The notes below the pieces were generated by a model. It was not told where the DNA came from. It worked only from the letters and a program-made list of their open reading frames with translations, and did no database searches. From Tubiluchus corallicola (taxonomy: Eukaryota; Animalia; Priapulida), in the NCBI GenBank assembly GCA_030141605.1, contig JAQGDQ010000015.1:1116001-1180000 (forward strand): DNA of 64,000 nt, read 5' to 3'. Positions 32,106-63,993 of the stretch are shown here, piece by piece. Made by a program: the position numbers and the translations under genes. The stretch's first letter is position 1. Every line of letters starts with the position of its first letter.

Positions 32106-35100
32106 AAGATTTAGAACACAAGATAGATCAGGATTATTAAGTACGAGTCAGATGTACTTGGCTTCTCGCCCTGTCACGCCCCTACCAAAAGAATTGGCTT
32201 CGCGGCCTGCCACGCCTTTACCAGGAGACTGCCCTTTCGACGCGAAACCAAATTCAAAGAACTTGCGAAGTAACAGACTGAAACAAACCGAGACAAATAA
32301 ATTGATTATCGATGGCTGTACAAGTACCTGTGATTATAATACCAAATATAGTATTCGGAAGATAAAATTAACCGATCCGTCTTTTACACATGGAATCGCT
32401 AAATCTGCAACGGTACAGTTAGGCAACGGCCTTAATGGTAGAAAGAGCATGCTGTGCGTCGATTCGCCAAAGCAGGTGATTGGTCAAGCAAAAGTTCTTC
32501 GCAACATTCAAGAGGGATTGATTAACAGCTTACCTGGATTAACAGAAAACAAGAGTTTGTGTGACGTGAAGCCAGTTAGACAAGCAAATGAAGCCGTCAC
32601 TCGTGTCATAGATGATATTAAAGAACTTGTGTCAGACTTAGAGCAAGTGAGTGTATTGTCTGAAATTGCTATGAAAAATCTTCTCCATGTTAATGGACTG
32701 TCATGCAAAATGACTATGATACATATATTTTTTGTGTATTTCAGTGTAGTTGGTGTGTTAATATTCTTACTATGTATCAATTCCATTTCAGCCTTCGCAT
32801 CCTCAACAGAGACTCTATGGACCAAGAGGAGAAAAGCTGTTGGACCGACAGGTGGCTTCGCCAATGAGAATATGCAGTAACAATAATAACGCACCTCGTT
32901 CTCGATCACCTCATCAATGTGTAAGTAGCGAAGATTACACCACCAACAGCGACGTTTGTACCTGTGGTACGGGATCTACCTATGCAAGAATTACGTAAGT
33001 ATGTTTAAAATTGGCTGACTTTCAATGTTATTTGAATCATTCAGAATTGAACTATACTGTTGAAATATGGCAGATACGCAACCAAGAATCTTTTGATCAC
33101 TAGAATATACATGAAGTGCCACCTTGCTAGTTGAATGTATGAATCAGCATAAAGAGGTATGCTAATTTGCGCAGGCTTATGTAGATTGTAGGGAAACGGC
33201 ATTTGTGTAGATACAGAGCATCTTATCAAATAAGTCAATTCTTCTGATGGCACACAGTCAAGGAAGTAATTTTTGCATTTTAATAGGCATAAACGAACCA
33301 GGATTGAATATACGCTTATTTTCCGATTGTGTAGTGTATTTAGACAAATCATTTGCTTCGTGTAAATTGAGTAACGCACAGTATAATTTTTTCGATCAAT
33401 ATTATACAGACAGAAAACACACTAAGATTAATTAGTAAATGAACTACTATTACACGTACTTTAACGTCTCTTTATTAGTGTTTAACATTACTAAACATTG
33501 CAAAGTTGGCTTATAAAGGTCATATTTGTTTACAAACGTTAGGAGTATCTTTTCTGTGCTTCCAACGTTCTGCAGCTTATCGGTGCATGCAGTCTTACCC
33601 AAACAGAGTAATGCTTGTGCTGTTTGTCGGCAATTACTACCCTTTTTATTTGCTGTGCAAACAAACAGAGATTTAAGTTATAATAGTTACATTGTGTAAA
33701 GATGTTGGAGATGAATTTTGCTCGATTTTGCTCTGAGAGTTTTAGACGCAAGTAAGTGTGGCTCACAGAGAGGTAATGGCTGCCATGTAGAAGTGAATGT
33801 CGGATGAAAGTTAGGCTGGCTGGGTTATTCTCTCCTGGAAAATATTGGATGCAAGTGAGTTAACTAGAAGACAGACCAGAGACATTATGCGAAAAGATGT
33901 TTGCGATCAGTGTACTGCGTTCATAGCTATTAGTGTCGAGTTAGGTCTATAGCGTGTACATTTGCACGAGTTTGTGCAGTCATGTTAAAACACAAGAGAA
34001 CTAGTTCAGCAAGATCTGTAAGGTATGTGTTCCCGGTAATTCTAGGTTCATGGGGAAGTCTTGAGAAAAGTAGTGTTATCTTTGCTCTAATTGTCGCACA
34101 GTGTAGTGCAGCCTAAGTTACAGGGTAACATACGTTATAATGACATTGTAATTGGTATTATGAATGCGCCGGAGCACTTCTGACGTTCACAAAACTGAAG
34201 GCTGACAGCAAGAAGGGCATTGATCTCTTACCACTCAATTTCATTTACGCAATAGACGAAGTACAATTGCATTATTACTGCGAGCGATTTTTTTTGTTGA
34301 AAACCTGGCTATCTGTTTTTTGGTAGCAGATTCGATTTCATAATGAGAAAGTTATTTTCTTTTAAAGTTAAACAACGTGTTTGTGAAGCCGTTTCAGACT
34401 TGAAATAAGGTTATAAGTACAACATAATCTAAAATGCCGTAGTATGGTTATGCCTATAGTTTTCTTTACAGCGCAATTTGTGAGCACCAACGTTCATATT
34501 GCTCTAGTTTAGATTTAACAATAACAAACCCTTGCTTTTTTCTCAGTAAAATGCTTACGAATTTGATGATCGTTTATGTTAAATCTACCGAGGTTATGTC
34601 CTGCTACTGTTGGTAGTCATCGGCTCTTGCTCCATAGCAGATAGCAATTGCCCCAGGGCATTAGTAAAGAACAACAGTAATTCTCCGCAATAAGAATGAG
34701 AAAAAACGTCGTAAACCCTAGATTATGCCGCTCAGCACAGGTTCCACAAGGTAGTTAAATTTGCATCAGAGAAATATCGGCGTTCATTTATCACGCTTTG
34801 TGTCACACTGGTTGATGGTTACTCTAGTTTTATGACTGTGTCGCCCTACCATGACACCTTGATTACAGGCCACAGGCGTCTTTGCTAAAAATTACCATTC
34901 AATAGAAAAACCTAAGAGCAATGTGGTGGATGCAGCGTGTGGTGAGGTGTAAATTCCACAGGTAACACTCGGTGATATCAAAGCAAATGGTTGGGGAAGT
35001 TCGTTAGTAGATCCAGTAGAGTGGACTGTGGTAAACCCAGTACAGTGGACTGTGGCTATATTATATTATGCAAATAAACTGCACAACTGCAAGGTTGTGG

Positions 35101-38100
35101 TTGTCTAGTTAATCTATAATGAGGTGTGTCCTCACTATTTATTGATGTTAAATAATCTATTGTGTGTCTATTCACATTTATTCTGACTTCGTCATGCTAA
35201 AGTTACATAGAAAAAGGTGAGAAATACAGTATTCTTACAAACTGTTACCAAGACTGTGAAAGGGTAATTGCTTTAAGAATCTGGTCATTTATTCTCTGCA
35301 GGCTATGGTGTTCCTCTTGCAAATCTGACTTGGTAGATACAAGACAACAGAAGGTTTCCTCCAACAAATCAGACTTCGATAGTATTATTATTATTATTTC
35401 ATATATTGTTTTATTAATATTTAACTTGTCTTTCAGTGTTGATCAGCATCCAGCTAGGGGAACAAATGATTATGAAGCAGTGCAAAACAGTGAACTGAGG
35501 GCAGCATGTAGTCGTTTGTACTGTGGTCAAGACCGCAAGCACAAGGAAGAATATTACCCCAAAACCTCGAGTCCGGTAAGCATAGTTTTACCATCATCAT
35601 TGTTACTGTTGCCATCATAATGATGGGGATATGAAATATAGTTAGTTAAAAAACCTTAAAACATTGCAATTGGATAACCAAATTAAGCTTCCAGTGGAAA
35701 AGGTGAATGAAAGGGGAGACCTGGACGTATATAAAAAGTAGTAGATATTTTCACGTTCACTTGGGAGACCACGCTCACAGCACTTATTGTAATGGGTTTT
35801 GATTGGTGAGTAGATATTTTCGAGAGTCAGTAGTCAATTTCTCACCATCACTTTAGTCTTGCAAATCTTGAAGTACTTGGTAGGTAAAAGATTTCTTTGG
35901 AATACAAATGATTAAACATTCACAGATTGGTTCTTCCGGTACTAACTTGGTTAGCTCAAGTGTAAAGAATTGGTAGATCACCTAATTAACACTTACATAA
36001 CAGTAGAGAATTAAGTGGGAAAATGAATTTTCTGGTCTAGAATATGACATGCTGGGCTTTAAAGAAAATAAATGCTTTAGTTTTTACTATACAGAGGCAC
36101 CGGAAAGCATGCCTGTCAGCTGAATTACCTTTCTTCTCTTTATTAATCATGGAGGTAGTAACACCAGTTAATCCAAATAAAGAAGTCAGTGTAAACTTGG
36201 GGAACATAAACGCAGCTTATCATTCTTCCTGCATATCTGTCAAGTTTGATAATCACGTAGGCCTCTGTGATATAAGCAAATATTTAGGTTCGAATTACAG
36301 AAGACCATAACATCAATGGTAATATAGCATACATTTCAGATGGATCAAAGCAGAAGCAGTGATGAACTTCCTTTGACATTAGGCAATGGTGAAGCAGAAC
36401 CTGGCTACAGCCAATGCTTTCCACAGAGAAATATCACACAGATGCCAGCCCATAGACCAGAATATCGTCGTGATACCAGCGGAAATGGTGTGCAAATCAC
36501 CATTGCAGGAAAACCGCCTGCAACAGTGACTAGTAGCAAAACACAATACCAGTCCACTAGTAACTGTAATAACCTCTCTAACAATACAAATAGTAATGCT
36601 AATGAACACATTTCTGGAAAGTACAACAGCGAAGCTAAAGTTTCAAATTATGCTTATAATGGCACTGGTAGGGATACGTATACCAGCAATGTAGCCATCA
36701 ATGGTAGCTTACAACAACACAGAATTTATGACAAAATTCGAAACACGCAGCAGACAAATGTACAAAATACGTATCGCAGAAGTCGGTCAGTTGAAAAAGA
36801 TGACCGATATGACCGCTACCCAAGGAGAAGGGCTAACAGTGCTGGCAGTGATTCTCAAGAATCCTCGCTAACTCCACCTCTACCGGCATCTTGCGAGGAG
36901 TCCGATACTACCAGTATTCTTTCGGCCGATTCTGTCCTCATTTCTATACCAGGTATAAGCAAACTGGGAAAGAGAGCAACGCCTGATCTGCTACAAGAAA
37001 GGAAAGGAAAACCAGATGGTGATAAACGCTTAAAATACAAACTTGAAAATGGGAAGGTGAAGAAGAAAAAGAAACGGAGGCGAAGAAGTAAGAAATATTT
37101 TACTTTTATAAATGAAATAAACTTGCCGAATGCGATAACCTGTGTACTCCAGTCTCATATACAAGTCGATGTCATTCATTCGTTTATCACTGCTAACTTT
37201 TCAATGATTATAATGCAGCCCATGCAAATTATATTGTAAATTTGTGCTTCATAATCAAGCCTTTTGTAGATTTGGAAAAAGTATGTTAGTCAGTCTTTTG
37301 GAACACCAAAATACTCTTGTTATTGAAGACTTTTAAAAGACTAAAGACTAAAGAACTCATTCTCACCCAAATTATCAACAAAATAATGAGTTAAAGAACT
37401 TTACTTCTCATTTAATTACCATTGAATGTATTTCAGTACAAAAAAAACCAAGCGCGTGAAGAAGAGTCGAAGAATAGTGGTAGTGGGTAAAGTGGCATCT
37501 TCAATACTTTCACAACATGCAACAGATATACATGCAGAACACCATGTAAAATATATTATCTTTATTACCAAATAATAATTACCAATATTATTATTATTTG
37601 AATGTACTAGGTTTGTCATTAGATTCAGCTTCTCCTGGAGTTGAACATTTAACATTGGATTACTCATCAGACACGGAAACTGCAACAGCAAGCAAGTCAG
37701 ATGAATCATGTGAGGTAGAAGCTCTACGGAAACAGATACAAGGCATGGAGCTCATGTACACAGAGCTGCTAAAGGTACAGGGCTTATGTTTCTAGATTTC
37801 TTAAATATAATGAAAAACAAAAAAATGACTAATTACTTATAGCAAGAACATCGTTCCTGATTAGCATGTTTTCACTTCATGATCAACAAAAGAATGAACT
37901 TCTAATTAAACAGCTAGTCACAATCATCATACCAAGATGCACACAAAAATGGTTATTTTTATAAGATTCAGGATTTTGCAGAGTTCTTGTTCAATGCAGA
38001 TATAGTGGCAGACAGAAACCTATCTCATAATCATTAAGATAAGATGCAGAACCGGTGATGTCTTAACTAAATTGTAATGAGATATGAAATGACCGTCCTT

Positions 38101-42931: not shown

Positions 42932-45900
42932 AGACATAGACAGAGACATTTTATTTATCTTCTCATTTACACCACAATACAAATAGACTATTATTGCTAT
43001 AGTTATTAATTAAAAAGGATAAATTATGCATAAAGGAAAGAGTTAGGGGGCGGGAGGGTGCAGGAGAAAGGGTAGCGAAAGACCAATTGGTCATCAAGTC
43101 AGCTACCCTTCTCAGGTTAGTGTAAATTGTAAAAAAATTGTAGTGCTGCTAACTGAAAGGTGTAATGTAATTATGAAGTAGGTTAAGAAAATCAACTGTT
43201 AACATAAATTTATAGAGGAAAAAATTAAACTCGAAAGTGAGATAACTAAATACGCTATGCAACAAAGAAGCATTAAAATAAAATGAAAAATATGAAATGA
43301 TGATCAACAAAATATACAAATCATTTAACATTTAAAACATAAAAAAACTAGAAAAATGTCAGACCAAAAGAAAAAATAAAACATAAATAATAAATCAGTG
43401 AAGGAAACAAAGTATGCATGATAGAATCAAACGAAATATAATGAAACAAAAATATGCAATAGTGTTTAATCAAATTATGTTAAGCATAATGATAAAGGAC
43501 TAATATGGCTCAAAAAATATAATAAAACTTAATGATAACTGTGAAACAATGAGCAAAATAATTATAATAAAGTGAATATATATGTAGTGAGAAAAGCATA
43601 ATATGCAAGCAAAAACATCAGTGGAGCAGGCAAAATTTTAAAAAATTATGTATGACAAAGTGTTGCAGCTGCTGGATTTGTTTGAAGATTATGTAAGACC
43701 TATTTCAATCATATTTCGACCTATTGTACTGCATGTTTACCTTTCCTTTTCATAGCTGTGAAGAAATAATAATAACAATTTTACACTTTGATGAAAAGAT
43801 GTACCATGACAATATAATTATAGTTAATAGAATAGTACAAGGGGAATACATTAAAACTAGCAGAGATGATTTATTAGAAATAAATCTTAGCAGAAAAGTC
43901 ACACATGATAATTAGAAATAAGGATGGATTTATAGTTAATTATCAAATAGCTAAAGGTGCCATTTTTTAGTTCATTATGACTGTTCCACAACAAAAGTAC
44001 CTTGATAAGTTAGAGATTTTTGCCCTTTGTTAGTATTAAATCTTTGTACTTAAATAGAAAGTTTGATTAGTGGTAAATCGTGTATGATACACATGCAACT
44101 GGGCTACTGATTTATAGTAATTCTGGAAAATTTCAGGAAGCATATAATGTTTAAATCTATATACAAATTTGGCCAACTCTAATTTATATATGTCCTGAAG
44201 TTTCAAGATTTTATGTTGGTGGTATGAAGATGTAACATAGGCTTTATTTGTATTTGTCCAAAGCTTTATAAATTTATTTTGATTAGTAATTAGGGAATAC
44301 AATGTGAAATGGGGTGCTGAGCCATAGGTAAGTATGCTGTATTCTAAATACGGTGAAAATAGGGAAGAACATAGAAGTTTTTTCAAATCATAATTCAGGA
44401 ATTGCCTAATTTTTGAAAAAATACCTATAATTTTACTGGTTTTATTAACAATATATTGTATATGTGCTTTCATGAAAGATTGTGATCTATTAATACTCCT
44501 AGATATTTTATTTGTTGTACAGATTGTATCCTGTTATTTCCCATTGTCAAATTTAATATCAAATTTTCTACTTTTCTGGGATTACCAATCATCATATATT
44601 TAGGTTTGGAATAGTTTATAGAATATAGTTTATTGGCTCTCATCCATAGATCTACTTTAGCTAATTCAACATTAAGAAATTCTTTTAGGTGATTTATGTT
44701 AGTATCAGAAATGGAAAAGTTATATCATCAGCAAAAAGTCTAGTATGTAATTGAGTATTTAAAGGGAGATCATTTATGTAGAGTAAGAAAAAAAGGGAGC
44801 CTTGAGGAACATCACACTGTACATTTACCAGATCTGAGTTTTTATTCGCGATAGATGTATATTGTTTTCGATTGGGCATATATGAGTGCAGTAATTGAAG
44901 AGGCAGGCCTCTGATACCATAGTGTTCAAGTTTGGCTAATAAAATATCATGTTGTACAGTACCAAAGGCCTTCTTTAAACAGTTAGGAAACGTACCTTCA
45001 GTAATAGCAATGTTAAACAATTCAGTTAGGACAGGGGAATAAGGAGACCAGTTGATTTGTAAAATGATAAAGGAATATTTTCATGACCAGAGACTTTGTT
45101 CTGATTTAAATTATTAATTGCTGTATTTACTTCAGCTTCAATAATGGGCATTAAGAAGAACGAATTTGGCAAAGCACATCCTAGAAAAGACTGAAATGAC
45201 AGTTGTGTGGGCTGCATTTTAGATGCTGTATAAAGACCAATGGAAGCAAAAAAATGTTCACGACTTGACAGATATCAGTTATGTCACTTGAGAGAATGCC
45301 ATCTTTGTATACATTTTTTAGTGTTATGCGTTGATGCAATTTAGCATTAATTAAACTATTTATGGTTGACCAAAGTTTCTTTGTGTTATTTTTACTATTT
45401 TGCAAGATTTCTTGATAGTAGCTTTTTTTTGCTAAGTATTTTATATGGTTGAGTTTGTTAGAATAAACTTTGTATTTATTTCTATTATAAAAATCGTTAG
45501 AGTTTTTAAATATATTAAACAGTTGGCTTCTAGTTTTAATAGATTTCAGTATGCCTGGTGTTATCCATGGCTTGTGAAAAGTTACCACTTCACGTCTTGA
45601 TAAAGTTTTTAGAGGCACATGAGTATTGAGAAATAGATTGAATGTTTGAAAAAAAACTGATCAAAAGTCTTATTAGTAGATAAGTAAGAATAATCAATAG
45701 TATTAATCTGTGTGTGCAATTCATTTAAAAAGGCAGAGGAATTAAAGTTAGTTTTATCTCTAATTGTAATTTTAGTTTTCTGTTTAGTCGGATTTGTATT
45801 TTTGACAATTGCAAAAACAGGCACGTCAGCCACTTCGTAAGTTATTATACCCGATACAATAGGGTTAATCATATCATTAGTATAGATATGGTTTATTAGG

Positions 45901-46440
45901 GTACTAGGGTTTTTTGATATTCTTGTTGGTCTTGTAATTAGAGGAACAAATTGGGTAGAAAATAATACATTTAAGTAATTAGAAATATATGGTATGCTCT
46001 CAAACTGTAATAAATTTAAATTAATGTCACCACATATGTAAGGTATGCTACCTGATTGTTGAATAGCAGTTAATACATGGTCCATTTCCTCTATAAAAGG
46101 CGTAACAGGTGTATTTGGACGTCTGCATAAGGCCAAATAATATACTCTTTGAATTATTTAATGTTGATACACGGATCCAGAGATTTTCTAAATTAATTTT
46201 TGAGATTTCTTTTAATACTTTGCCATACAGTACTTTGGTTATTTCTTTTTCAGTCACTATTTTATATGAATTATTTATAGAATAGTTTAAATTATCTCTA
46301 ATATAGACACCGATGCCACCAGCGTAACGTAAGAGATTAGATTAAGAATTAATTATTTTATCTCACGCCATGTCTCATTTATAATATAATATGATATACT
46401 GATCTCAATTAACTAAGAATTTGAGACAAAATGGCAAAAA
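42932..46440 (-). mobile_element. Degenerate non-LTR retrotransposon (CR1/L2-group LINE; APE endonuclease + reverse transcriptase) with frameshifts
   Basis: APE motifs ETW, GGIGVYI, ICGDINLNLL, PTRIS..STLINHIYTN; linker KPWITPGILKSIK; RT motifs KAFGTVQHDILL.KLEHYGIRG, VPQGS, LYINDLP, FADD. A 3' UTR of about 1 kb has a stem-loop (43064-43113), AATAAA and a (TGTCTN)n tail at 42932-42955. Possible ORF1 remnants extend to about 46900. Confidence 0.92.
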
Positions 46441-48603: not shown

Positions 48604-51600
48604 TTATCGCAGAGTTAATTTCATTTTAAAATCTTTAGGTGAACAAGTGAAGCCAACAACAGGCTCCAAGTCCAGTCTGGTTTCGCCATCTGGCAACTGT
48701 ATGTTGAAATGCTGAAATATGCTGGTGAAGTACAGGAAAATCTCCATGCGTGCCAACGATTCTCCCAAACAAATGCGGCGACCTATATATATAAACCAAC
48801 AACGAACAATTGAAATAATCATGTTCAAATAATTGACTAAAATTATTTAATTTTGTTTGGCTCAGATAGTAATGCGGTTGCGCCGTAGGCCTACTGTTAG
48901 CTAGAAACTACTACTTTTTTAAACATAAAAACAAGCTTGTTATAGAGATATGCAGGACGTTTACAGTTACAACAATAATATTAGTAGCAAGTAATAACTA
49001 TAGCACAATACTACAAGCACAATTATAGCATGCTAAGCATATGCAACGTAAGATTTTATAGGGTAAAATGTATGCCTTCTTTTATCTTTGTTTTTACATA
49101 CCTACTGAAAACGGCATTAAATTTTCGTTTTTGACAAATCGTCCATTCTGATCCAAATGGCGTTCTGGTCGATATTCGTTTGGTTCTGGAAAATGTTCTG
49201 GACTAAGCAATACTCCAGTAAGGTTGAACACAATTGGCGTCGAGGCGGGTATCGTGTATCCATTAAATTCACACGTCTCTGAAGTAAGGTGCGGTAATGC
49301 TATTGGCGCGATGTTGCCTGTGACATAAGAAAAAGACTGTTATTCGTTTTATAGTCAAGGCAAATCCTAACTCTAATTATGCACTTTGTATATATTCACA
49401 AAATTCTTGAAACTAATTACTATTTTAAGGAACTTAGGAGTGGAATAGTTCATTACATTAGAATGGAAAAAGGTTGAAACAGGAAACAGTTCACGCGAAG
49501 AAACCAGAAATCATGTTTTTTTACCAAGCTTCCATATAAGGCATATTTTTTATCATCTATATATCTTTTTACATGCTTTTTACATTTTTCGTGACAGCTT
49601 TTATTCTTTTAACAATGTAGCGTCAAAAGCTGATACTTTTAGAAATTTATCGACACCAGTAACTGAACTTGCTTTAAGTAAATTTGTCAGAAATGTGACA
49701 ATGGTTTCAAAGCATTTTGTAATTAGGTATTCAAACCATCGCAGAAATTGAATAATGCACTTCTTTAATTTGAATTCATGGCATCAAATATTTTAAATAA
49801 TAAAAGCAGTTTCTGGTTCAGCAAAATTTAACGTTTTTGTAAAAACAATGATGACAACGACAATGTTGGTGGTGTGATTAATGATGACAATAATGGTGAT
49901 GATGACGATTATGATGATGATGATGATGATGATGAAGACGACGATGATGACGACGACGATGATGATGATGGTAACGGGGATGGCATTGTTGACGATGATG
50001 ACGACGACAGGGCAGTTCATCAAATTTTGTTCTCCAGTTCTGAGCAAAATTAGCCACTTCCACAACTAGCAACAGATCTATTACAAAGCCAATAGGCCTA
50101 CTATATGAACAAAACTAGTGACTTGATTTTCCTAGAAATAGATTATGCTGTGAGAATACAACGCAAGTGGTGCCATTTTCCCACTCTCCCCTTTCCTTTT
50201 ACAGGTATGGTTTTCAGAAACTGAACACCTCAAAATGGGTAGAAGATGGGCAATGGTGCACTGAGACAAAGAACGCGAACTAGCTTAATTTAGAATTGAA
50301 TTCACTCACTTTTTTATGTGTTAGAGAAAAAGATGAATTATGAATTTGGTAAATTAAGCAACGTACGAAATCTTAATTCGAAGACGTGCAAAATTTTATC
50401 ATAATACTTATGTTACAAGAAGTTTGAGTGCTATAGAGTGCTCTTACCTAGACGTTGTGTTTCTGTTATACATGCCTCCACGTAGGGCATATTGGAGCGG
50501 TCGCTGCAAGTGGGCAAACGGCTTCTTCCGATGACGTTCTCAATCTCTTGTTGAGCCTTCTTCATTGCTTCCGGGTTCTTCATCATGAAGAGAAATGCCC
50601 AGCGTAATGTTGTGGCAGTGGTTTCAGTACCCGCGAAAAACAAGTCGAAGACGACTGCACTCAGTTCAAATTCTAGTAAAATCGCGAAATCATTTTTTAT
50701 TAATAGACAGCAACCATTGTAAGTGCTGCAATAAATTATTAGAATATTTTAAAGAGAATCTGAACACATTCAATTTCTCATCACACCAAATTCAACAATT
50801 AACAAAGGCCTAATGTAACTGCATTGCAATAAATATCGTAACATTGTTACCAAGCGTAGAAACTGAGAAAAAAGCTAACCATTAAATGTTGTATCTTTAA
50901 CACCCTGGGCATTTAGCTGTTGGATGTGGCTTAAATAAGCATCTATAAAATCCCTGGTATTTTCAGGATCGTGCGAATCGATGTGCTCATTAATGATTTT
51001 CACTATAAAGTCAAAAACCAGCGACTGATTCTTCACAAAATTGTTATAGCTGAAACGAGAAAAAAGTAACTAATAAGGAACTTAAAAGGAAAAGTGAATT
51101 AAAGTGGCAGCCGTCGTCACTACGGCGACCAGCTTACACTAGCACCAGCTACTAGCGTTGGCATGGTGCAAATCCACAATGATAACTAAATTTTGACACG
51201 AAAGTTTAACTTCGAAGTGTGGCAAAAATTAGGATTAGAGGCAGGAACATCTTATGGTCCTAAAGGGGCATCTAAAGGAGTCCAAAAGGAAGCTTAGACT
51301 TCCTATTTGACATTTTGCCTATCAAAATTAGCAGAAGTCACCTCTGTTGAATGAGTGGAAGAAATCGTGTCCATGGGAAGACCTCTACGACAGTTTGAAG
51401 CAGAGTATTGGACGCGTCTTCACTGATACTTTTCATTAGCAGCTTGAATTCTGCATTGTCGTAATCATAAGTTCTGCCGAGTACTACAGAACTGATTACA
51501 TTGGAGATACTATTATTCATCAAAATGCGAACGTTAAACGGCTGTCCATCTTTCTGTTTGAGTTCGTTTAGAAAACGAGCAATTTCTTCTTTGATCTTTC

Positions 51601-52688
51601 CTTCCAAGCTAACTTTTCCCATTCCGAATTCTCTGAGTGCAGTTAAAGCAAATTTTCTCTGTTCTTTCCATACCCTTCCTTCTGATAGCACCAGACCTTA
51701 AAGACGTCGAAAGTTAAAATTATTAAACTACAAAACTTTAGAGCCAATGTTCAAAACTGTCTAAAAGCTGTTAGACACACGCAGTAATAACAAATTACTA
51801 TTTGGTTTATTTTATAATGTTACTGAGGCCTTAAGGCCCGGAATGCGTGCTAGGAAGTGGAAGCCAAAGAGACCCTGGTTTCTTTGCTTTCTATAAGATG
51901 TATTACATCTACTAACTCCTGTTAAACGCATCAAGAAAAGTAAACACAAATACGATAGAATATAATATATAAACTATATACTAAGTTATAAAGCCATGTA
52001 AGCCTAACAAGTGTGCGACAGGCTTTCATTTTTACAATTAGAAAAATAAAGGACAGAAATTAGCATATCGAGCAAGGCAATGTAAGCCTATGATATAAAT
52101 ATGAACACTGATGATCTTTCTATGCTAAATGATATAAACATATACATAACTTTCTCTTATCGCTCATTACGTTGTATCTATCAACATTTTTATGTAACCA
52201 CTGCTGCAAAATTATAATAATTTTACAGGGCATCTGAGCAACTATAGAAACTAATTTCTCTTACTTAAAATCTACCCAGAGTGCTCAGGTTTAGTTTACG
52301 TACCTGGAACATGCTTAATGTGTCCGAATCCAAGTTTTTGCAAAATGTCGTCAATGAAGAAGTTTCGAGGTCGTCCCGAAAAAATCTCTCCTTGTTTTAG
52401 AAAAGCTTCGCGCGCTAGCTCAGTATCATTAATTACAATGTGCAATTTACTTCCTATATAGACACTGAATATTTTTCCGTACGCTTTAGACAACTCTGTG
52501 AAAAATCGTCCTATGTGTTTCCCCGCTGACAGTATAGAACCAATGTAGGGCCACCCAAGAGGACCGGGTGGTATATTAGATGGTCTCTTGAGGTATTGCC
52601 ACAACTTCAGTGCAAGAAACACGCACACGCTGGTTGCTACAAGTTTCAAAATTGTACATCCAAACAGACACGTATTTGTAGCAGACAT
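48604..52688 (-). CDS. Cytochrome P450, CYP2 clan (CYP2J/2U-like; subfamily not assignable), 6 coding exons
   Basis: Exons 52688-52304, 51696-51342, 51049-50880, 50672-50448, 49317-49102, 48782-48604. Motifs: TM anchor + PPGP, WKEQRKF, DPENTRDFIDAYL, I-helix DLFFAGTETTATT, ETQR (ExxR), PERH, heme PFSVGRRICLGESLA. The spliced frame is intact. Confidence 0.95.
49847..50008. repeat. (GAT/GAC)n degenerate trinucleotide repeat in a CYP intron
   Basis: Seen directly; source of the poly-I, poly-H and poly-M ORFs. Confidence 0.92.
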
Positions 52689-54814
52689 CTTTATACACAA
52701 CAAAAATTAGGTTAATAAAAAACGTATATAGAATTTTGTTGATAATGTTGTGTTGTTAACTGTCGTGCATACGTTAGAATAGTGAAGTTACGTAGAATGG
52801 CAAGTTGAAATAATTTCTGAACCTTGGTTAGCCTTGACCTAATTGTTGCAATATGATTCACGCTTGCGCCATGCTCTCACAGGCTAGACCAAAAAGCAGT
52901 ACAGTAACTAGGCCTTCTTACAGGGCGTGCTAAAAGAAACAGTGCGGTAGAAAATATGATACGCTGAACTGGACTTCTGCGTAACGACATTATAATGACG
53001 TAAAACTAATAATATAATATTTATTATATTTGGATAATTTTAATTTAAATTAAAAACCAGTTTTTCGCTTGCAGTTTGAAAACTTTTACATTGTTTAGTT
53101 GCTTAGTAATGATTAATGCAACTGTGTTATATCATTGACTCTTATTATATTGCTTAAATGTTAAAAAACCCATCTGTTGCTTAAGCGTCAATTATTTCTC
53201 TTAACCGATATGTTTACAGCATAAGCAAACTACAGTCCAACGCAACAGCAGGACTGAGTGGGTAGACAATTTTGACTACAGATTTCTGACACATGGGCTG
53301 TGTCGCATACGTTGCCCAAATTTCCCCCAAAAGTTCCAAAACGTCGTAAGTTTGGAATGCGGGACAAGTCCGGCCACTGTGTGGGTTGGCGCTCTCATTT
53401 TTAGTTATCGTTGTACCAATAATTGAATATCTATAAAAAAAATTTATTATTGAATATCTGTTTTTTTTATTTTGTACAAACTTGCAACAATGTTTTTTTA
53501 TTTTGCAACAATGGTTTAAGGTGTGTTACTCTTTTTGCGAGGGGAGCAGTGTTGAAACGAGATCCGGGGCAATGAAATAACTGTGCAAAAGAAAATGGCT
53601 TCCGAACACAGTGTGACTTGATAAGGTAGCTCTAATCTAGAATAGCTGAGTGGTCATAATTCTGTTTTGTTAACAGTACTGAAAATGTAAATGAATGTGT
53701 TGACTGTGTAAAATACGTTTCTGGGCGGTTTCATCTGCCATCAGTCAATGCCTATTTCTTTCAAGAAGACAGAGTCATAGGCACCTCTGCTGCCTACTGA
53801 TTCAGGGCATCCTATACGAGTCTTGTTAATTTAACATGTTCCGGACCAGCCACAACCCTTCAACGTTATAACTAGGCCCACTCGTAAAAGGTTAGGTTTC
53901 TTTTCGTATTGTGGAAAGTCTAAGACGTATTTTAGTTAATAACCAAGAAAAATACACTAAGATTTTTCCCGTACATTTTATTGAATTAATCCAGAATTAC
54001 CATTTACTCATAGTCACAAAACTGCTAGTTAAAATTAAATTCGGTAAATTCAAAATAATAATAATTATTATTATTACAATTCTAAACATTAACATTTTCT
54101 GCTCATGTATATGGAATAATACCTCCGTTAATTATATGCTCAAAATAAATACGAAATAAACATGTGCAGAATATCGTGGAGAAAACATTTTAAGACCCAA
54201 AAAAGAGAACCAACTGGGTCAATGAATGATGACACCACAGCACTACACGTAGTTTATTTTAGGAATGGTGGTAAATGGTAAGTTTCATTGAAGAGTACTG
54301 TGTAAGGGTCTGGAAACGAATTAGATGATAAAATGCACTTACAATAATGAAAAAGACGTCAATGCCAACTAGCAGTCTGTCGACTACGTCACAAAGTTGA
54401 TTATTTTTTTCTTTGAATTAAAATGATGTCTCTGGCAAGTGCTTCTAAAATGCAGCTAAAATTGATTGCCTTCAAATAGCTATACTAAGTTATGCTTCGA
54501 ATTGCTTTTATGAAAGTACGCTCATATTTTTAGTTTTAATTGATGTCCATTGTATAACGAATTTTGACTATACATGCACAGTACAATGAGGATCTACAGA
54601 CTTAATAATATTACAACTAATCATTGGACAGTCTAAGCAGCATTCATTTCTAAGATCTAATGATGTGCAAGAAATGACTACTAAAATAATCAATAAACAA
54701 AATGTATAAACACCAAAAGTTGCAAAAATCGTACGTAATTTTTTAATGATAAAAACAATCTCTCTGATAAATAATAGGCCTCCAGTAAGTTTATTCGGCA
54801 CGGTATCCCAATAA

Positions 54815-54900: not shown

Positions 54901-57402
54901 TGTGATCATAATAGACTTCAACTGAACTTAACAGCACACCCTCCAACATTTCCAAGTGTTAGTATACTTACCATAATTATTAACTAATTAATGTTTTTTT
55001 CTGTAATTAATTCAGACGTTGGAATAACCACTGGTTATTTATAATTTTAACTGCAATTTGGCATGCAGTGCCCATAATGATGCACGCGAACTTCGTTTTA
55101 TTACAGTGCAGTTCTATACGTTAATAACTATTCTATATATAGTAAGTGTTCCTTACAATGCAGTAATCACTATACTTTAAATTTCAAAGAACGCATTTGA
55201 TTCTATTGATCACTATACCTGAAATTTCGAAATGCATATCTGGCAACAAAATATTCTGCCAAAGTTCAAAATAAACACGCAACTACGCAATTTTCTTACA
55301 AGTGGCAGTAGGAAGCCACATCAAATAAACGTAGTCAAAGTCTTATTATTATCAGAGAGCTTATTTAAAAATAGCTAGCGTATTTGTAAACAATAACGGT
55401 TTTACTAATTATTTGCTGATACTTTGTCAGAGAACACATTACCTGTTGAACAAACATACTTAGTTTTAGCTGTAAAACTAAAATCGGAAGATTTAGAACG
55501 AAGAACTAATGTAAGAGTACACACTGCACACCAATTCTTACAATTTTACATTACAGTATTAGTCATTACTAGAAGTTGTAGTCCATATATATTTCCGTAG
55601 TTTGAAACATAATATTCCCATTTCTATATTCAAACTAATGAAACAAAACAATTATTATATTAATGTATCAGTTAAAATATTAAGCCTATATCACTTTTAA
55701 ATAGATAGTGTAAGTAATCAATACACAAAAAATACTTCCACTTTTATGAAAAAATACTTGATACCTTGCAAAATAACGCTTCTAGTTATTTGTTGTATAT
55801 AATATAGAGTATATATGGCTCAAAAATGACAGCACCTGCCTATACTACTTATAAAATTTTAATTACTAGCATAACCGTGCAGGTTTAGTATTAGATCACA
55901 TACCAGATTTTTATTCATAATTTGCATGAAAATGTAGTACAGTGCTCAACTGTATATGCGTCAATTAGTAGTTAACACAATCTAGAGAATGCCGAATGCT
56001 GTTATTATAATATGCAATAACAATTATTATCAGCCTAAAGTATGGTATTTTGATTGATTAGGAGTGGTCTGTTCAAAAATGCTATGAAAATAATTTTTAA
56101 TACAATGTATACAAGTCAAGCAAAAGGCATATAAAGTATAATGAATTTTAAAGCTACTTCAACAGATGAATAGTTAATGACACTGTCAGAACATAAAATA
56201 GAAAATTCAATGTGAAAATTTTTAAGTTTTAAGTAACTTAAAACTTCAAAATAGCAGCACTGAGGAACAAAACATAACTACACAAACATTAAACTTAGTT
56301 CCTTTTCAAGCTATTAACAGGTGCGGTACCAGTACCGTCAAATTAGGTGCAAATAATACTTTGTTAGGCTTTTACTTGGTCAAGTGCAAAAAAGACAATG
56401 ACAGCATGGGTACATGAAATTATAAATACCTTTTTAAAGTCAAATGAGACTTGCAATTAAAATCAGTCAGAAAATGTCATACATTTCCAAAGATCCAAAG
56501 AGATAATACAAAGCAGCTAACGAGTTTAGCACGATAACACTCATTAAATACAACTATATTATACAATTAATAATAACTAATAATAACAATGATCATAATT
56601 CAAATATCAACAAATTTGATTTACTTGTGCCAGATAACAACTAAAATCACAAGTGACTGGTGACAGTGTCATTTAACATATTCACAAATTTTATTGCATA
56701 TTAGTGCTAATTATATCTCTATCATTTTAATAATATGTACAGGCAATATGCGTCACATTATTTACATGAATATTACACACGACTAAAAAGTATACTGGAA
56801 TATGTTCAACTTTTCAAATTATTTCTTAGAAGCACATATTATTGACATGAGATAATGCTCATGTTTTGTCACATGCTCACAGGTATTAATAGGTTGCCAA
56901 AAAGTAAACTTGTAAGCAAAATAAAATACATTCTGGTAAAGAACATTCATTAGTGAGTATGCCTAGTTCAGAATTTGTGATTATGCTGATATTTTTCTTA
57001 TTTTGCCACTTTTCTACTAACTCACTAACACAATATTGCCCAATTATGACCACCAAAAAACTATGCAGAAGAGCATTTTAGTAAATTAGCTAGAATCTGC
57101 TATAATAGCTTCTACCACTAAATATTGCACCTTTTTATATACAAAATATATTACTTATACAATAATACAAGTATTGTAGGAAAACCACAAACATACCATA
57201 AAACAAAGTAGCGTGTGTGATTGCAGTGTATTTTGGATATGAACGGCATATGTAAGAGGTACAAAAAATATAAGCCAGTCAGTTATTCAGTTGAGATGAG
57301 GGTACCACTGGAATGTGTTGAAAATCAGTAAAATAAACAACTTTTATTTGATAGATATGAAATATGTTGGCTCCCACAAATGCAGAAATAACAAATAACA
57401 TT

Positions 57403-57471
57403 TTAATTCTTCGTTAACATTTTGCTGGCGCGTTCGTTTGCAGCTTGTATGCGGGTACCCACCAATTTGCC
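57403..57471 (-). CDS. SNAP25: SNAP-25 alternative last exon B ([22 protein letters not shown])
   Basis: Acceptor ttttctttctttcacag, phase 0, 69 nt including the stop; AATAAA at 57343-57348 and further ones downstream. Confidence 0.88.
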   Translation of the reverse strand, partial: GKLVGTRIQAANERASKMLTKN

Positions 57472-60400
57472 CTGTGAAAGAAAGAAAATAGAGTTACTAC
57501 AGCAAATCAGATTGTCAAAAGCAAACAATTTGAAAATAAAAGTCTTAAAACCCTTTCTTACTATTACAACATTTACAATTCAAAGTGCTTTACAAATACA
57601 AGATCAAAAGCCAAATTTATAAAAAGGCAGCTTAATCACAACTTAGTGACTTGTATTGACCAACAAGAAGACAAATACAGAGCGAGCCATGTAAAATGGC
57701 AACAAAAAAAAACCCTAGCCATATTGCATTTGACTTACACTTGCTAGTGTTTCTCACACAATACGTTATTACATAATGCAACGTATTTCTCACATTGTTT
57801 GTTAAACTAAGGTAAACATAGAAATAAACTAACTAGCAAAAACTAACATTGTAACACATCACGTAAAGTATTAATTACTCTAACGTGTACATTAATGGTG
57901 CAAATAGGTATAGCAATTTTCAAAAATTAATGGCATTTTTTACAAAACTACACGTTAGTGTTGCCACACATTTATTCACGTCATAGATTCTGACACTTCA
58001 TAGGTCATAAGAATCTCTGCATTAAAGGCAAGCGGTAACCATACGTCATTGGGTTTCGGAGCTTAACTGGACCATTCATATAGCACCCCCATAGCCTAGC
58101 TGTTAGTTGGCTATTTCGTTATTTTGCTAGTCATAATCCAACAGTTTTGTTAAGCTTCAAAGCACCAAGAAGCATAGTAACTGCTGATGAGCACTTGCTT
58201 TAACACAGAGGTTCTTATGAATTAGTTTTATTGCCTGCAAGATGTTTCACTTCATGGATTCACATGAGCACTGGTCAACTCAGTATATGCACAAACTTAG
58301 TATTAGTCAGTCAAACTGAAGAATAAATCATGAAGTCTGTTCAAAGAAATTCTAGAAATGTTTACTAATTTAACCAAGCCAGTCGAAAAAGTTTTTAATT
58401 ACTGCACACATACATTATTTAGTCTTTGAGTAATTTGTTCGCCCGCACATTTGCAGTCTCTATACGGTTGGAAACTAGCTTGCCCTAAAAGAACAAAACA
58501 AGAACTTGCTATGATGCACATGCAGTTATTTAAAATCATGCATCTCTACAAATTTGAAGTGTAAGTATGCTCAAATTGCACTAACAGTGAACTGAATGCA
58601 CAGAAAATCTAAAAAATGCTGTGCAAACTGCACTTCTAACACAATATGTTCGACAAATAGTGCACTTGGAAACTGTTCGAAGATATGATTACAGTGCTGA
58701 ACTGATGATATAACTATATGCAAGTGATGAACCAAAAAGGGACTATGTATAAAGTGAAAATAAATCAAATGTATCAGTCTTCAGAATGACGTGTGAACTT
58801 GGTATAAAATCCACTTTTTATGTTGCATATCTTACCATAATAGTGGTTAGTTATTCAAAAAAGTGTACATTTGATTGGAATACTAGAGTTTATTCTGACA
58901 AGTAAGCTCCCAATCAAATCTTTCTATAGTCCCCTTTTGATCTTTTGTCTCACAACACATTATGAGTATAATCTAAAATGCTTCTAACGATTGATATGTA
59001 GCACAACTACTATCTTTAACTGATGCCTGTGTATTTATAAGAGCGTGAGCGTGACTGCACACAACAACAACGACTAAACAACAGATTATAGATATAAATA
59101 TTGTGCCTAAAGTGACACTACCACTAAATGGCAATTGTGCTTGACTATAAATACCTTCTGGTTGATTCTGTCTAACTGTTTGTTTTGGGTGTCGATTTCA
59201 CCACCCATGTCGATCGCCATATTGCGTAGATTGCCCACCATTCCTGCCACCTGGCCGATGTTTTCCTCCATCTCGTCTTCACGAGCATCATTCGTTATTC
59301 TGAAAAAAAGGTAATACCATACATATTTAATTAAAGACAATTTTTTCAGATTATCAACAAGTTCATCAGCAGCTCTGTTGTTGCAGTAGTTGGACAAGTA
59401 TGGAATTGAAAGCGTCCAGTAAAATAATATGATCTGACTGCGAGAACAGGCTATGAATTATCAAATGCCGATTACTTCTACAGAAGGAGAACGATTTTAG
59501 TGCAGAAAATAGGGCAGTGAGTGGACTTATAATGCAGTGCTATTCAATACTCGATAATTTAAATCTAAGAGTCCGAATACTTTATAGATCGAAAATAAAT
59601 AACAAGCTCATTAACTCCACTTGAGTTATTCAATTCTTCTTAACTACTGCTTACAGGTCTTTTAACTTAATGTACAAAAGAAATGCATATAGCTTTCAAG
59701 TGATTGTGAACCCATTTAGTTGCTGGTGTAATATGCATGGTTTGGAAAAATTAACCTCACTCTTGGCTGCACTTTCTGTTCTACCGAGACTTACAACTTC
59801 ATAAATACATTGTTTGTCGTAGCAAGGATGTGGCCAGTGACAAAAAAATTCCCAAGACTTTTATCTTAAGAAGTCTTTTGGTTTTGCTACAGAGTTGCAA
59901 TTTGAGGATGTTGATGCAAAATATTGGTACCCTAGCCAGATACCAACTACCTCAAGCATGTACCATGTGACTGCTACCACTTGACTGGAAATCTCTACAG
60001 TACAAATGGTGGCCTGAGCTTTGCATTCAGAACTTAATAAATGTAAGTATCAAATTAAATAGCTTGGCTGTTATTAATACAGATGTCCTTACTTAAATAG
60101 CATGATGCTCTTACCTAAATAGTATGACAAAATAGCAGATGCAGTTCGGGTAAATAAACATCTATTTTAATAACAACAACAAAAGTGTGACGTTGTCCAT
60201 GTACATCAATAACCCTTGATCTTTTTTCTATCATCATTAATCACTGGAACTCTGAAAAGGCTTATTTATACATGGTAGTAATATCAGTACTGCTTGTAAA
60301 TGTCACCTTGTAATGTATCCACCAGTTGGGCCCATGCCATTGCGATCATCACCAACTCTGACAACTGGCTGACCAGAAACGACACCATCTTGATCTTTCT

Positions 60401-63400
60401 TCCACGTATCAGCATATTCTTTGCTTTTTTCAATATCTTTTCCCCTGTAAAATTATCAACATGAATATATGGTTAAACCCAGTCAACATGTCAAAAAAAG
60501 CAAGACAAAATGATGACAAAACAATATTTACAGCCCGAGTTAAAGATTGATTGGAAAAACATGATGCGCAGAACTGTTTTAGTAGGTATGTAGGTCTAGA
60601 TAAATGAGTTAATAAATCTAGAGTCCATCTATTTGCCAAACTGCTCATGTTTTCTGTATGTACACAATTGCCCAAATCAGACAAGTCTTCAAGCAAGGAA
60701 TTACTGTTAACCATAATCGTAATTTTTTTCTTAATAAAAATTTCAGTAAAATTTAGGGTGATACCAGGTTTAGGGCGATCTAAAGTGTTTACAGTTTTAC
60801 ATGTCTCATAACTTGCACATCTATGTTAAACTCCAAGTTAAAAAATGTTTATTAAACTCCTGGCATTGCCACACTTTTCACTAATAACAAAATTGAAGCC
60901 AAGTTGCTATAAATGTCATTTCGTCATTTAAAGTAAATCGAACCGAACGTAATTGCCCGTTCTTTGTTTCCGTAGTCTTTAATTGTGTCAAAGCTTTACA
61001 ATTTCAAGTTCAATAGACCTTTTTGCGACGACTTAGTCATCACGTAGCACAGTCTAAAAATAATGATGCCATAGCAGTTTAGTTGTTCGGTAGCTGTAGT
61101 GTAATTAGAACATTCTTGGGCTAATAGAGCATATTCCTTGTTATTAAATACAATTCACAAATGACATTTAGCAACTTAAATACAGCATGAAATCAGGCTT
61201 AGCTTAAAATTAGCAGAACTGGATAAGAGACAATCAGAAAAGCAAAGTTTATTTCCTTATACATTTAGAAACCTCCATTAACGAATAGATAATTCTGGCA
61301 TTGTCACAAAGATGCAAATAAGGCCAGACTACAATCTGCAAATGTCACAGCCAAGATTGAAACTTATTTGTTGTATGCCAAATTTCTCTCAATCCAGGAT
61401 GTCGTACGATATAATTATTAGAAACTCTGGATTTCACATTTAGGCATTAATTATTAATGGCACGGAAAAGCTTTCCAGCTTACACTGTAACGCTCGCTAA
61501 TGGCCACTCTAACTCTATTTCGCAAATCAACAGTAGCGCTGATATGAATTAGGAAGGTTGTAAATTAGTAGTAGACACAGACCTCGCGCAGAGTGTTACG
61601 ACGTGAGGGCCCTGAAGAGACTAAATTAGCTTTATTGAGATTCAAAAATCAGAAACTGCATTTTGTTCACCGTTATTATATAACAACATGTAAGGCTTCT
61701 CAGTATAGCTCATGGAAATTATCCAACCGACAAAAAGAAGCTGAAGTCTATGATTTGTAGGGATGCCTGAAGATAAATTGAAAGTCTTATCCTATCTGTA
61801 AGAGAAGCTGTATTCAGTAGATAATCCTTACAAATGTTTGTACAAGATCATTTACTAGCTCAGGGTTTAGAGGGTTAAGGTCAAACAGTTAAAGCAAACT
61901 TCAACAACCAACATACAACTGCCACTTTCTAAGATTTCATATGAGTTGCACTCAAACACAAAAATCCAAATCCAAGACAATCGTAATATTCGATTTAATT
62001 TTGATTTTATCAAGTTGTAGCTAAGCCTAAAAACAAATATAATTATGAAATGATCTTCATGAACAGACTTTTCATCATTGCTCATTTGCTTTGTTCTGGT
62101 TACATTATGGAAGCCAGTGAAGTTTATGTAGCCTCAGATCAATAAGGTATTGGGTTGCAAGATCCAGTGGCAGTTTGTTAAGCTTTTAGGGGCACTTTCA
62201 AGAGATTATTTATAATGGGTTTTTCTTTAAATACATCTCTGCTCCTAAAATAGCTGAAAAGCTTCCGCTGTTACTTTGAAGTGTGAAAGGGATGACATTT
62301 GAAAGGTTGGGGATTGCATCGCTCAGTTGTTGGAGTTAACGAAGCCCTGTATATACTGAGAGTGAAATTTTTTTAATGAAGCATGATTGCACAAAGGAAT
62401 TAACCAAATTAAACTATAAACCAAGTTATTACTGTATATACAGGGTGTTCCAAAAGAAACAGTGCACTGTCCAAGTGTAGTCGTACCATGTTATGTGGTA
62501 GGAAAATAGGAATTAGACACAATATTATTTTTAGGTCAGTTTCTTACCACAATCCAGAAGTCCAAGTTTTGAAACATTTTCTTCTGCATATCAGTATATT
62601 TCTACAGCACTGTTTGTTTTGAAATCACCAGCATATACTATATGGGAACTTAGGAATAAAACACTGCATGCCAGCAGATCAAGCTTAGCAGCAGAAGTAT
62701 GAGAATATGTTAAATAAGATGTGACCAAAAGTAGCATAAACACATATCCTATCAAGAACCATTACGATTAACAGCTTTGCAAACGAAATGTCATTGCTGG
62801 TTTCCTAGCTACTTGAAGCATTATGTGAGGCCAGCTTTTACATTGGCCAGGGTGGTACAATCCATTACAGCTTGACTAATACATACATGCTCAGCTAAGC
62901 CACTACAAACACCTTGTTTGCATTTGGATTGTATACTCAGGTACACTTACTTCATGCATGGGCAAACAAATAACCCACAGCACTTTTCCATGCCTGTAAG
63001 ATTCTTTTCCGCCTCTCTCATGTCCTGATTGATCTGATCCATACCCTCCTCCACTCGATCCAATTGTTCTGGAAAAAAATCAAGTATCCTTATTATCCTT
63101 TTTCAAATCATTGCAGTTCTGATGGCACAGCTTTGGGAATACCCAATTTGATTCAAACAGCAGCATCGATGTAACTGAACTTACAATTTCACCTATGACT
63201 ATAATCACATCAATCTCTATTTGCAAGTAGTATTGAGAAAATAAACATAAAGTTTAACCCTATGGCCTATGGACTCTAATAAGTATTTTGTTTCAAAAAA
63301 TAATTTTTCCCATAGATTTAGCTTACTATTATAGACTTATTTGTGGACACAATGTTGCAGAATTTTTCTTTGTCTGTTTTGTGAAAAATGAGATTGCCAT

Positions 63401-63993
63401 CAATGACATAATGTTTGTTAGAGCCAAACGGTGGATGGGTAAGTCACTAGCACACAAAATGAAAATGTGATCCATGCAAATATTTGCACAACAAAGTGCT
63501 TGTACAGAGACTTTCTAACATTTTAATTTTATGGACATAAAGAATATAATCCTCCAAATCTAATATCAAAATCTGGATATGCTACAAAAAAGAAACACAC
63601 ATTATGATGCATATAAAATGACTAAGTTCATGCAAAAGAAAATGCACATCAAGAAAAATTTACAAATTCTGTAGATCCCTGCAAAATTTACAACACTGGA
63701 AGAATGTACAATTTGTGCACATCACCATAGAATGTAAAATCATCAAGGGGATTTACAAATTTTGTAGATCAGTATAACACGTACATCATTAAACAGAAAT
63801 TTACAGTTTTGTAAATCACCAAAAAATGTGCAATCATCAAGAGAGTTTACAAATTTTGTAGACCAACACAATGTACAAGCATTAAGAGAAATCTGTAAGT
63901 ATTGTAAATCCTCTTGAAAAAGAAAAAGAAGAGTGAAAACTCACCCCCTTGCTGGTCCAGCTTTACAAGTGTTTTGACACCAGCTTCTTGGGC
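57403..63993 (-). CDS. SNAP25: SNAP-25 (Qbc t-SNARE), 5'-partial
   Basis: Exons 63993-63945 (49 nt, [16 protein letters not shown]), 63068-62951 (118 nt, [40 protein letters not shown]), 60444-60307 (linker), 59299-59155 (145 nt, [42 protein letters not shown]), then last exon 58484-58419 or 57471-57403. Sizes 49/118/145 match human SNAP25 exons 4/5/7 as I recall them. Confidence 0.96.
58419..58484 (-). CDS. SNAP25: SNAP-25 alternative last exon A ([21 protein letters not shown])
   Basis: Acceptor tgttttgttcttttag, phase 0, 66 nt including the stop; downstream AATAAA (tttatt at 57971-57976). Confidence 0.88.
   Translation of the reverse strand, partial: GKLVSNRIETANVRANKLLKD
62441..62633. 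mobile_element. Small Tc1/mariner-type MITE in a SNAP-25 intron
   Basis: The left end TA-CAGGGTGTTCCAAAAGAAACAGTGC is an imperfect inverted repeat of the right end GCACTGTTTGTTTTGAAATCACCAGCA-TA; TA on both flanks. Confidence 0.5.
63640..63912. repeat. Degenerate minisatellite, ~45-50 bp unit, ~6 copies, in a SNAP-25 intron
   Basis: Recurrent aatgtacaatcatcaagagaaatttacaaattttgtagatc-like units. Confidence 0.75.

What the first reader, a model, noticed from the sequence alone, without database searches (positions are those of the whole stretch)
57403..58484. SNAP-25 has two tandem-duplicated, mutually exclusive last coding exons that swap the C-terminal zippering layers of the second SNARE helix
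Seen: after the 145-nt exon there are two paralogous phase-0 exons about 1 kb apart, each with its own acceptor, stop codon and candidate polyA signal. Exon A is [21 protein letters not shown] and exon B is [22 protein letters not shown]. Core layer residues are kept (G+3, V+4, I+5, A+6, A+7, L/M+8), while surface residues and synonymous sites differ, so both copies look selected. Established: vertebrate SNAP-25a/b arise from a duplicated exon 5, not the last exon; this C-terminal segment controls the final triggering step of fusion and carries the BoNT/A (Q197-R198) and BoNT/C (R198-A199) sites. Position 197 is V in A and E in B. Inference: an independent invertebrate SNAP-25 isoform switch through alternative last exon and 3' UTR choice, possibly neuronal versus non-neuronal. 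I do not know whether it has been described.
Basis: partly seen in the sequence, partly recalled or inferred. Interest (0 to 1): 0.85.

Follow-up and report, generated by a model that had tools for sequence, protein, structure and literature searches.

The report
SNAP-25 with two alternative helix tails
This SNAP-25 gene, likely from a priapulid worm, has two tandem copies of its last coding exon, and a spliced contig from a relative joins the first copy, stop codon included, onto the second, so including or skipping the first copy likely gives two versions of the helix end that triggers vesicle fusion, as databases already annotate for many other invertebrates.

Summary
They score 36-37 against a SNAP-25 tail profile; the next best of 127,882 positions scores 15. 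Synonymous sites are saturated (0.90) while amino-acid sites are not (0.26), so the pair is old and both copies were constrained.

The proposed mechanism needs correcting. A spliced contig from a related organism runs penultimate exon > A > B. A has its own GT donor 5 nt after its stop, so it is a stop-bearing cassette and B is the terminal exon with a shared 3' UTR. The skip junction that would make tail B was not seen; it is inferred.

The design is not unique. Database isoforms show 2-4 alternative tails at this junction in 27 named molluscs, nemerteans, a hemichordate, ticks and a crab. One Asn/Leu pair is shared by hemichordates and spiralians; the window's pair fits neither class and is probably a separate priapulid duplication. 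Eight paper searches found no description. The scan had noted a different SNAP-25 exon pair (exon 4) elsewhere, not this one. Tissue specificity and functional difference are untested.

The parts
63945..63993 (-). 49-nt SNAP-25 exon-4 copy with a non-canonical sequence; a second copy probably lies beyond the window end
   Evidence: the X2 contig reads the canonical form upstream of 63070 (table 7, translated by eye)
62951..63068 (-). 118-nt exon, end of first SNARE helix and cysteine cluster; the exon that is duplicated in vertebrates, single here
   Evidence: X2 joint 60443/62951
60307..60444 (-). 138-nt linker exon
   Evidence: X2 joint 59299/60307
59155..59299 (-). 145-nt penultimate coding exon, first half of second SNARE helix; its donor serves A or B
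   Evidence: X2 covers it with 8 differences in 142 nt
58414..58484 (-). Exon A, 71-nt cassette: 21 codons, stop (ends 58419), 5 nt, then donor AAT|GTATGT
   Evidence: X2 contig covers it with 2 differences in 74 nt and joins it to both neighbours
57472..58413 (-). 942-nt GT-AG intron between A and B
   Evidence: joint 57470/58413, CT..AC with cut +1, side 74 nt
58005..58220 (.). Long hairpin inside the A-B intron, probably a small dispersed inverted-repeat element
   Evidence: z -5.8, 0 of 200 shuffles; X1 contigs match parts of it with loose ends
57403..57471 (-). Exon B coding part: 22 codons and stop; start of the terminal exon; untranslated when A is included
   Evidence: X2 contig ungapped across it
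57103..57402 (-). Shared 3' UTR; may extend to about 55525
   Evidence: X2 record 11 covers 57103-57470; further X2 pieces at 55959-56201 and 55525-55712

Best explanation
This SNAP-25 gene, likely priapulid, has a duplicated last coding exon, and a relative's spliced contig shows copy A with its stop codon spliced onto copy B, so including A gives tail A while skipping A likely gives tail B from the same 3' UTR. The donor at 59155 chooses between the acceptors at 58484 and 57471. If A is taken, its own donor 5 nt past the stop joins it to B, which becomes untranslated (shown in X2). If A is skipped, B is read in frame for 22 residues (inferred). The stop lies 5 nt before the last junction, so junction-based decay would not be expected (recalled 50-nt rule). 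Both tails cover layers +3 to +8 of the second SNARE helix and keep the core residues, so both are predicted to zipper. They differ at 9 of 21 positions, 8 on the surface plus Leu/Met at +8, which would tune late zippering or partner contacts rather than switch fusion on or off (inferred). The pair probably arose within priapulids, separately from the Asn/Leu pair of spiralians and hemichordates.
For: Joint 57470/58413 with GT-AG ends and 74 nt on the short side; the same contig's 16 loose letters match the end of the 145-nt exon exactly (matched by eye). X2 contigs carry three spliced joints in this gene. B has an open frame, an AG acceptor behind a pyrimidine tract, and pN 0.26 against pS 0.90; its one listed coding difference in X2 is synonymous. 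A Priapulus caudatus model, P0001, runs from the penultimate exon straight into KLVGTR, the same six residues as B. Two-tail isoforms are annotated in 27 named species, and tandem pairs are seen in DNA in 4 of 80 loci. A, B and the second P. caudatus gene group together at 90/81.
Against: The skip junction was not seen in either of the 2 runs laid, both contigs only. The junction evidence comes from a related organism about 5% different in exons, in a run whose RNA status is the tool's guess. The join from the 145-nt exon to A rests on 18 letters on one side, under the tool's 31-letter bar. P0001 departs from any SNARE tail after KLVGTR, so it is weak support for an intact B. Five of 10 X2 differences in 57346-57470 were not listed by place. 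The priapulid grouping is unstarred and 'B inside the Leu class' is not rejected (p-AU 0.30, 22 columns).
Confidence: 0.7

Rival explanations
1. A is now constitutive and B is a relic that survives as the start of the 3' UTR exon.
For: Only the A-included form is seen. B has the longer branch (0.63 against 0.28). The P0001 tail is not SNARE-like after seven residues.
Against: Synonymous sites are saturated yet B keeps its frame, stop position and layer residues. X2 is ungapped over the B coding part while its UTR piece has 17 gap letters in 57103-57470.
Confidence: 0.13
2. Classical alternative last exons: A usually ends at its own polyA site (58232 or 57976), or reads through the intron, and the A-to-B splice is a minor route.
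For: Hexamers exist behind A. In locus L016 a spliced mRNA with the first tail keeps the intervening sequence and the second exon in its UTR, so other animals handle the pair differently.
Against: The one X2 contig over A joins across the intron at depth 134. The donor matches the other donors of this gene.
Confidence: 0.12
3. The window's pair is the same ancient duplication as the Asn-type/Leu-type pair of spiralians and hemichordates, homogenised long ago (a rival on origin only, compatible with the best explanation's splicing).
For: A is 21 residues ending LLKD like many Asn-type tails, B is 22 like the Leu type, and the order matches L004 and L016. The AU test does not reject B in the Leu class.
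Against: Class profiles that sort 15 of 15 held-out pairs correctly give A -2.1 and B -3.3 bits, neither class. The shared GKLV start differs at synonymous sites, so there was no recent conversion, and KLV also starts both P. caudatus tails.
Confidence: 0.3
4. Assembly or haplotype artefact.
For: No listed DNA contig spans both exons.
Against: A and B lie in one spliced contig of another organism; pS 0.90 is far beyond allelic difference; X1 DNA covers A with both flanks with 0 differences (58352-58502).
Confidence: 0.01

Closest known systems
Annotated alternative C-terminal isoforms of invertebrate SNAP-25 (e.g. Lineus longissimus X1/X6, Ptychodera flava X1/X2/X5/X7, Mya arenaria X1/X2, Dermacentor andersoni X1/X2/X4, Scylla paramamosain O3P69_015933)
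   Same: Same junction, homologous 20-22 residue tails behind an identical upstream stretch; tandem genomic copies in L004, L016, L033, L036.
   Different: Both window tails have Val at layer +4 and Leu at the S187 position; the widespread pair swaps Asn and Leu at +4. The stop-bearing cassette splice was seen only here; L016 retains the intron.
Vertebrate SNAP-25a/b, exons 5a/5b (PMC2581893, passages read)
   Same: Same gene; tandem exon duplication giving two SNARE isoforms.
   Different: Different exon (end of helix 1 and cysteine cluster, single copy in this window); internal and strictly exclusive; the paper places that duplication in bony fish and reports none in Torpedo or Drosophila.
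Tandem-exon-duplication C-terminal substitutions (PMC8373072, passages read; 77 C-terminal cases in human; STX2 and STX3 events listed with equivalents in Daphnia)
   Same: Duplicated 3' coding exons giving homologous C-termini, including in SNARE genes.
   Different: The passages describe alternative polyA or frameshifting skips as the route; here the first copy has its own stop and donor and both forms would share one UTR.

Membership tests
SNAP-25 (Qbc SNARE) | Two SNARE helices with a cysteine cluster between them | tested here: met
   tblastn of 8 SNAP-25 proteins maps helix-1 end, cysteine cluster, linker and helix 2 in order; the first exons lie outside the window
SNAP-25 (Qbc SNARE) | Nearest relatives are SNAP-25 | tested here: met
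   best hit P. caudatus SNAP-25-like, 96% over 48 aa; Pfam gave 0 families on the two single-exon peptides tried
SNAP-25 (Qbc SNARE) | Forms a fusion-competent four-helix complex | not testable with these tools
   needs biochemistry
Tandem-duplicated alternative C-terminal exons | Homologous adjacent exons, same phase, own acceptors and stops | tested here: met
Tandem-duplicated alternative C-terminal exons | Both copies under coding constraint | tested here: met
   pS 0.90, pN 0.26 over 21 codons
Tandem-duplicated alternative C-terminal exons | Both junctions used in transcripts | tested here: inconclusive
   junction to A seen in X2; junction to B not seen in contigs, which drop rare forms
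Mutually exclusive / alternative last exons | The two exons never occur in one mRNA; each has its own polyA end | tested here: not met
   A and B are spliced together in one X2 contig; a further A-terminal form is not excluded
Asn-type/Leu-type tail pair of spiralians and hemichordates | One copy with Asn and one with Leu at layer +4, sorting into the two classes | tested here: not met
   both Val; -2.1 and -3.3 bits
Asn-type/Leu-type tail pair of spiralians and hemichordates | Common origin on a tree | tested here: inconclusive
   A and B group together at 90/81; B with the Leu class not rejected, p-AU 0.30
Vertebrate exon 5a/5b pair | Duplication of the cysteine-cluster exon | tested here: not met
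   one copy in the window, 63068-62951

The most novel reading that the evidence does not exclude
The last exon of SNAP-25 is an overlooked bilaterian switch: an Asn/Leu pair at layer +4 dates from the common ancestor of hemichordates and spiralians, fresh duplications of the same exon arose again in priapulids, ticks, crabs and insects, and the tails set cell-type-specific fusion speed, the job that vertebrates gave to exon 5. The priapulid version does it with a stop-bearing cassette that leaves the 3' UTR unchanged.
Probability: 0.35. Interest if true: 0.7.

Novelty: new member of a known kind. Interest (0 to 1): 0.45.

Why it matters
The last layers of the SNARE bundle set triggering speed, and layer +4 is very sensitive to mutation in synaptobrevin (PMC2819690, passages read). 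Natural paired tails from one gene are ready-made variants for testing how this segment tunes fusion. The survey also suggests that SNAP-25 isoforms used in snail, oyster or worm work may differ in this segment without notice. The window's instance alone is one more case of a pattern already in databases; the comparative picture is the more interesting result.

Tried and rejected
No whole genome is held for this window. No RNA holder was listed for the stretch itself; only X1 and X2 were offered. The skip junction was absent from contigs, which is no evidence of absence. A tail-region search with P0032 found no further priapulid proteins (2 hits among 5 candidates). My idea that A fills the Asn-type slot and B the Leu-type slot with recent 5' conversion was not supported. 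No conserved docking-type pairing could be tested: 36 inverted repeats were found in 57300-59320, most short, with no second genome to compare. GT dinucleotides follow the first stop in L004, L033 and L036, but also in single-tail loci, so they show nothing. A complex-prediction job on the penultimate exon peptide with P0001 gave no verdict (score 0.18); it tested no claim of this report. Four papers looked up by recalled ids are not held. Pfam gave nothing for three plus-strand open frames.

Full report
Observation. On the minus strand the window holds the 3' part of a SNAP-25 gene: exons 63993-63945, 63068-62951, 60444-60307 and 59299-59155. Two homologous phase-0 exons follow, A from 58484 and B from 57471, each behind an AG and each ending in TAA. 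A profile of 71 tails without priapulid-type rows scores them 36.4 and 36.9; the next best of 127,882 six-frame positions scores 15.3. The best protein hit of the penultimate exon is a Priapulus caudatus SNAP-25-like model at 96% (best 120 of 717 hits listed), but the other exons differ from it clearly, so the animal is likely another priapulid (inference).

Both copies are constrained. Over 21 codons, 13.5 of 15 synonymous sites and 12.5 of 48 non-synonymous sites differ (Fisher p about 6e-5 on rounded counts). The first four residues are identical but three of their codons differ silently, which argues for an old duplication without recent conversion.

Transcript evidence. Two runs were offered and both were laid; both are contigs. 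X2, which the tool guesses to be RNA, shows three spliced joints in this gene and differs from the window at 8 of 142 letters in the penultimate exon, so it is a relative. One X2 contig carries the end of the penultimate exon (16 loose letters that match 59172-59157 by eye, plus the shared AG), then all of A, then skips 942 nt with GT-AG ends and continues through B into a long UTR. A is therefore a 71-nt cassette whose donor lies 5 nt after its stop. In that form B is untranslated. The AATAAA that follows B in the window is not kept in X2. The skip junction to B was not seen; contigs drop rare forms, so this is neither support nor refutation. X1 DNA contigs cover A with its flanks but no listed piece covers B.

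Is B translated? Inferred, not shown. For it: the constraint above, an ungapped X2 match with one listed coding change that is synonymous (5 of 10 differences in that piece were not listed), and the P. caudatus model P0001, which goes from the penultimate exon straight into the same six residues KLVGTR before turning into non-SNARE sequence.

How it would work. P0032 aligns without gaps to the C-terminus of solved SNAP-25, which places both tails over layers +3 to +8 (residue numbers and layer names recalled). A and B agree at +3 to +7 and differ at +8 (Leu/Met) and at eight surface positions; both keep the R198 and K201 equivalents, with net charge +3 and +4. Both carry Val at +4, found in 2 of 139 distinct database tails (Asn 96, Leu 41), and Leu at the S187 position. 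Passages of PMC2819690 report that mutation of the last layer slows triggering in synaptobrevin as in SNAP-25, and that a layer-4 mutation in synaptobrevin nearly abolishes rescue. A modest tuning of late zippering is the likely effect; nothing here measures it.

How common is it? By hand count named species have two or more SNARE-like tails behind an identical upstream stretch, under isoform numbers or one locus tag (adjacent models in Elysia crispata): 19 molluscs, 2 nemerteans, Ptychodera (4 tails), 4 ticks (up to 3 tails) and 1 crab. This is no census, because lists are cut to 120 hits and 15 members per cluster, and I did not see the RNA support behind these automated models. One tail only was seen in 15 of 15 listed rows of a fly cluster and 12 of 13 horseshoe-crab rows, the last having a non-SNARE ending. 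Of 80 metagenome loci (best 80 of 201), 4 show two tail exons in tandem, 46 one and 30 none, many being too short to tell. L033 and L036 are near copies. L016 is a spliced mRNA that keeps the second exon in its UTR behind an unspliced acceptor, a different route to the same end.

Origin. Tails from 15 paired genes fall into an Asn class and a Leu class at layer +4; each half of the tail sorts 15 of 15 held-out pairs correctly, Ptychodera included (12 of the 15 are molluscs). On a tree of 41 chosen tails and 22 columns, the 11 Leu-class rows from molluscs, nemerteans, an annelid, L016 and two hemichordates form one side of a branch at 98/96 (I named the class partly by the +4 column, which is in the tree). 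A and B fit neither class and group with the second P. caudatus gene at 90/81, but placing B in the Leu class is not rejected (p-AU 0.30). A separate priapulid duplication is likelier, about 65 to 35.

Literature. Eight searches aimed at an earlier description gave listings and abstract openings with no report of a duplicated last exon in invertebrate SNAP-25; two more were for mechanism. Most subscription papers are not in the library, including a SNAP-25 family review that I recall, and I opened no supplements, so 'not described' is weak. PMC2581893 (passages) covers exon 5 only. PMC8373072 (passages) establishes the general class, with syntaxin examples. The scan's own notes hold an exon-4 pair in other SNAP-25 genes and no last-exon pair.

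Verdict. Real and well conserved, with the splicing mechanism corrected, one isoform shown in a relative and the other inferred. It is a new member of a known kind, and the same kind of switch is already in databases for many invertebrates. Interest 0.45.

Noticed in passing
window 63945-63993 (-): A 49-nt exon-4 copy with a non-canonical sequence, while the X2 contig uses the canonical form here; the gene probably also has the invertebrate exon-4 pair, with the other copy beyond the window. Five of six named isoform sets checked show two or more exon-4 forms.
   Followed up: partly
window 58005-58220: A 215-nt hairpin (z -5.8) in the A-B intron between two AATAAA hexamers; probably a small repeat element, but an effect on A-to-B splicing is not excluded.
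   Followed up: partly
proteins P0124/P0080, P0135/P0136, P0039/P0003; loci L004, L016: An Asn/Leu swap at SNARE layer +4 shared by hemichordates and spiralians, apparently older than the window's pair and not found in the paper searches.
   Followed up: yes
L033:10517-11280, L036:5983-6750: Insect-like loci with a second, divergent tail exon about 700 nt behind the usual one.
   Followed up: no
proteins P0001 and P0032: Priapulus caudatus has two SNAP-25-like genes on different scaffolds; the P0001 model ends in non-SNARE sequence after a B-like start and may be mis-modelled.
   Followed up: no
window 55525-56201: Non-coding stretches conserved in X2 contigs, suggesting a 3' UTR of about 2 kb.
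   Followed up: no
window 50431-52706 (-): Exons of a cytochrome P450 gene downstream of SNAP-25 (PF00067).
   Followed up: partly
window 44036-46341 (-): Broken LINE-like element; weak reverse-transcriptase match below Pfam's cut-off.
   Followed up: partly
window 60230-60267: Short intronic stretch hit by many X1 contigs with loose ends, a high-copy repeat.
   Followed up: no
window 32032-32880 and 36328-37239 (+): Long open frames of 282 and 303 codons with no Pfam family, probably exons of a neighbouring gene.
   Followed up: partly
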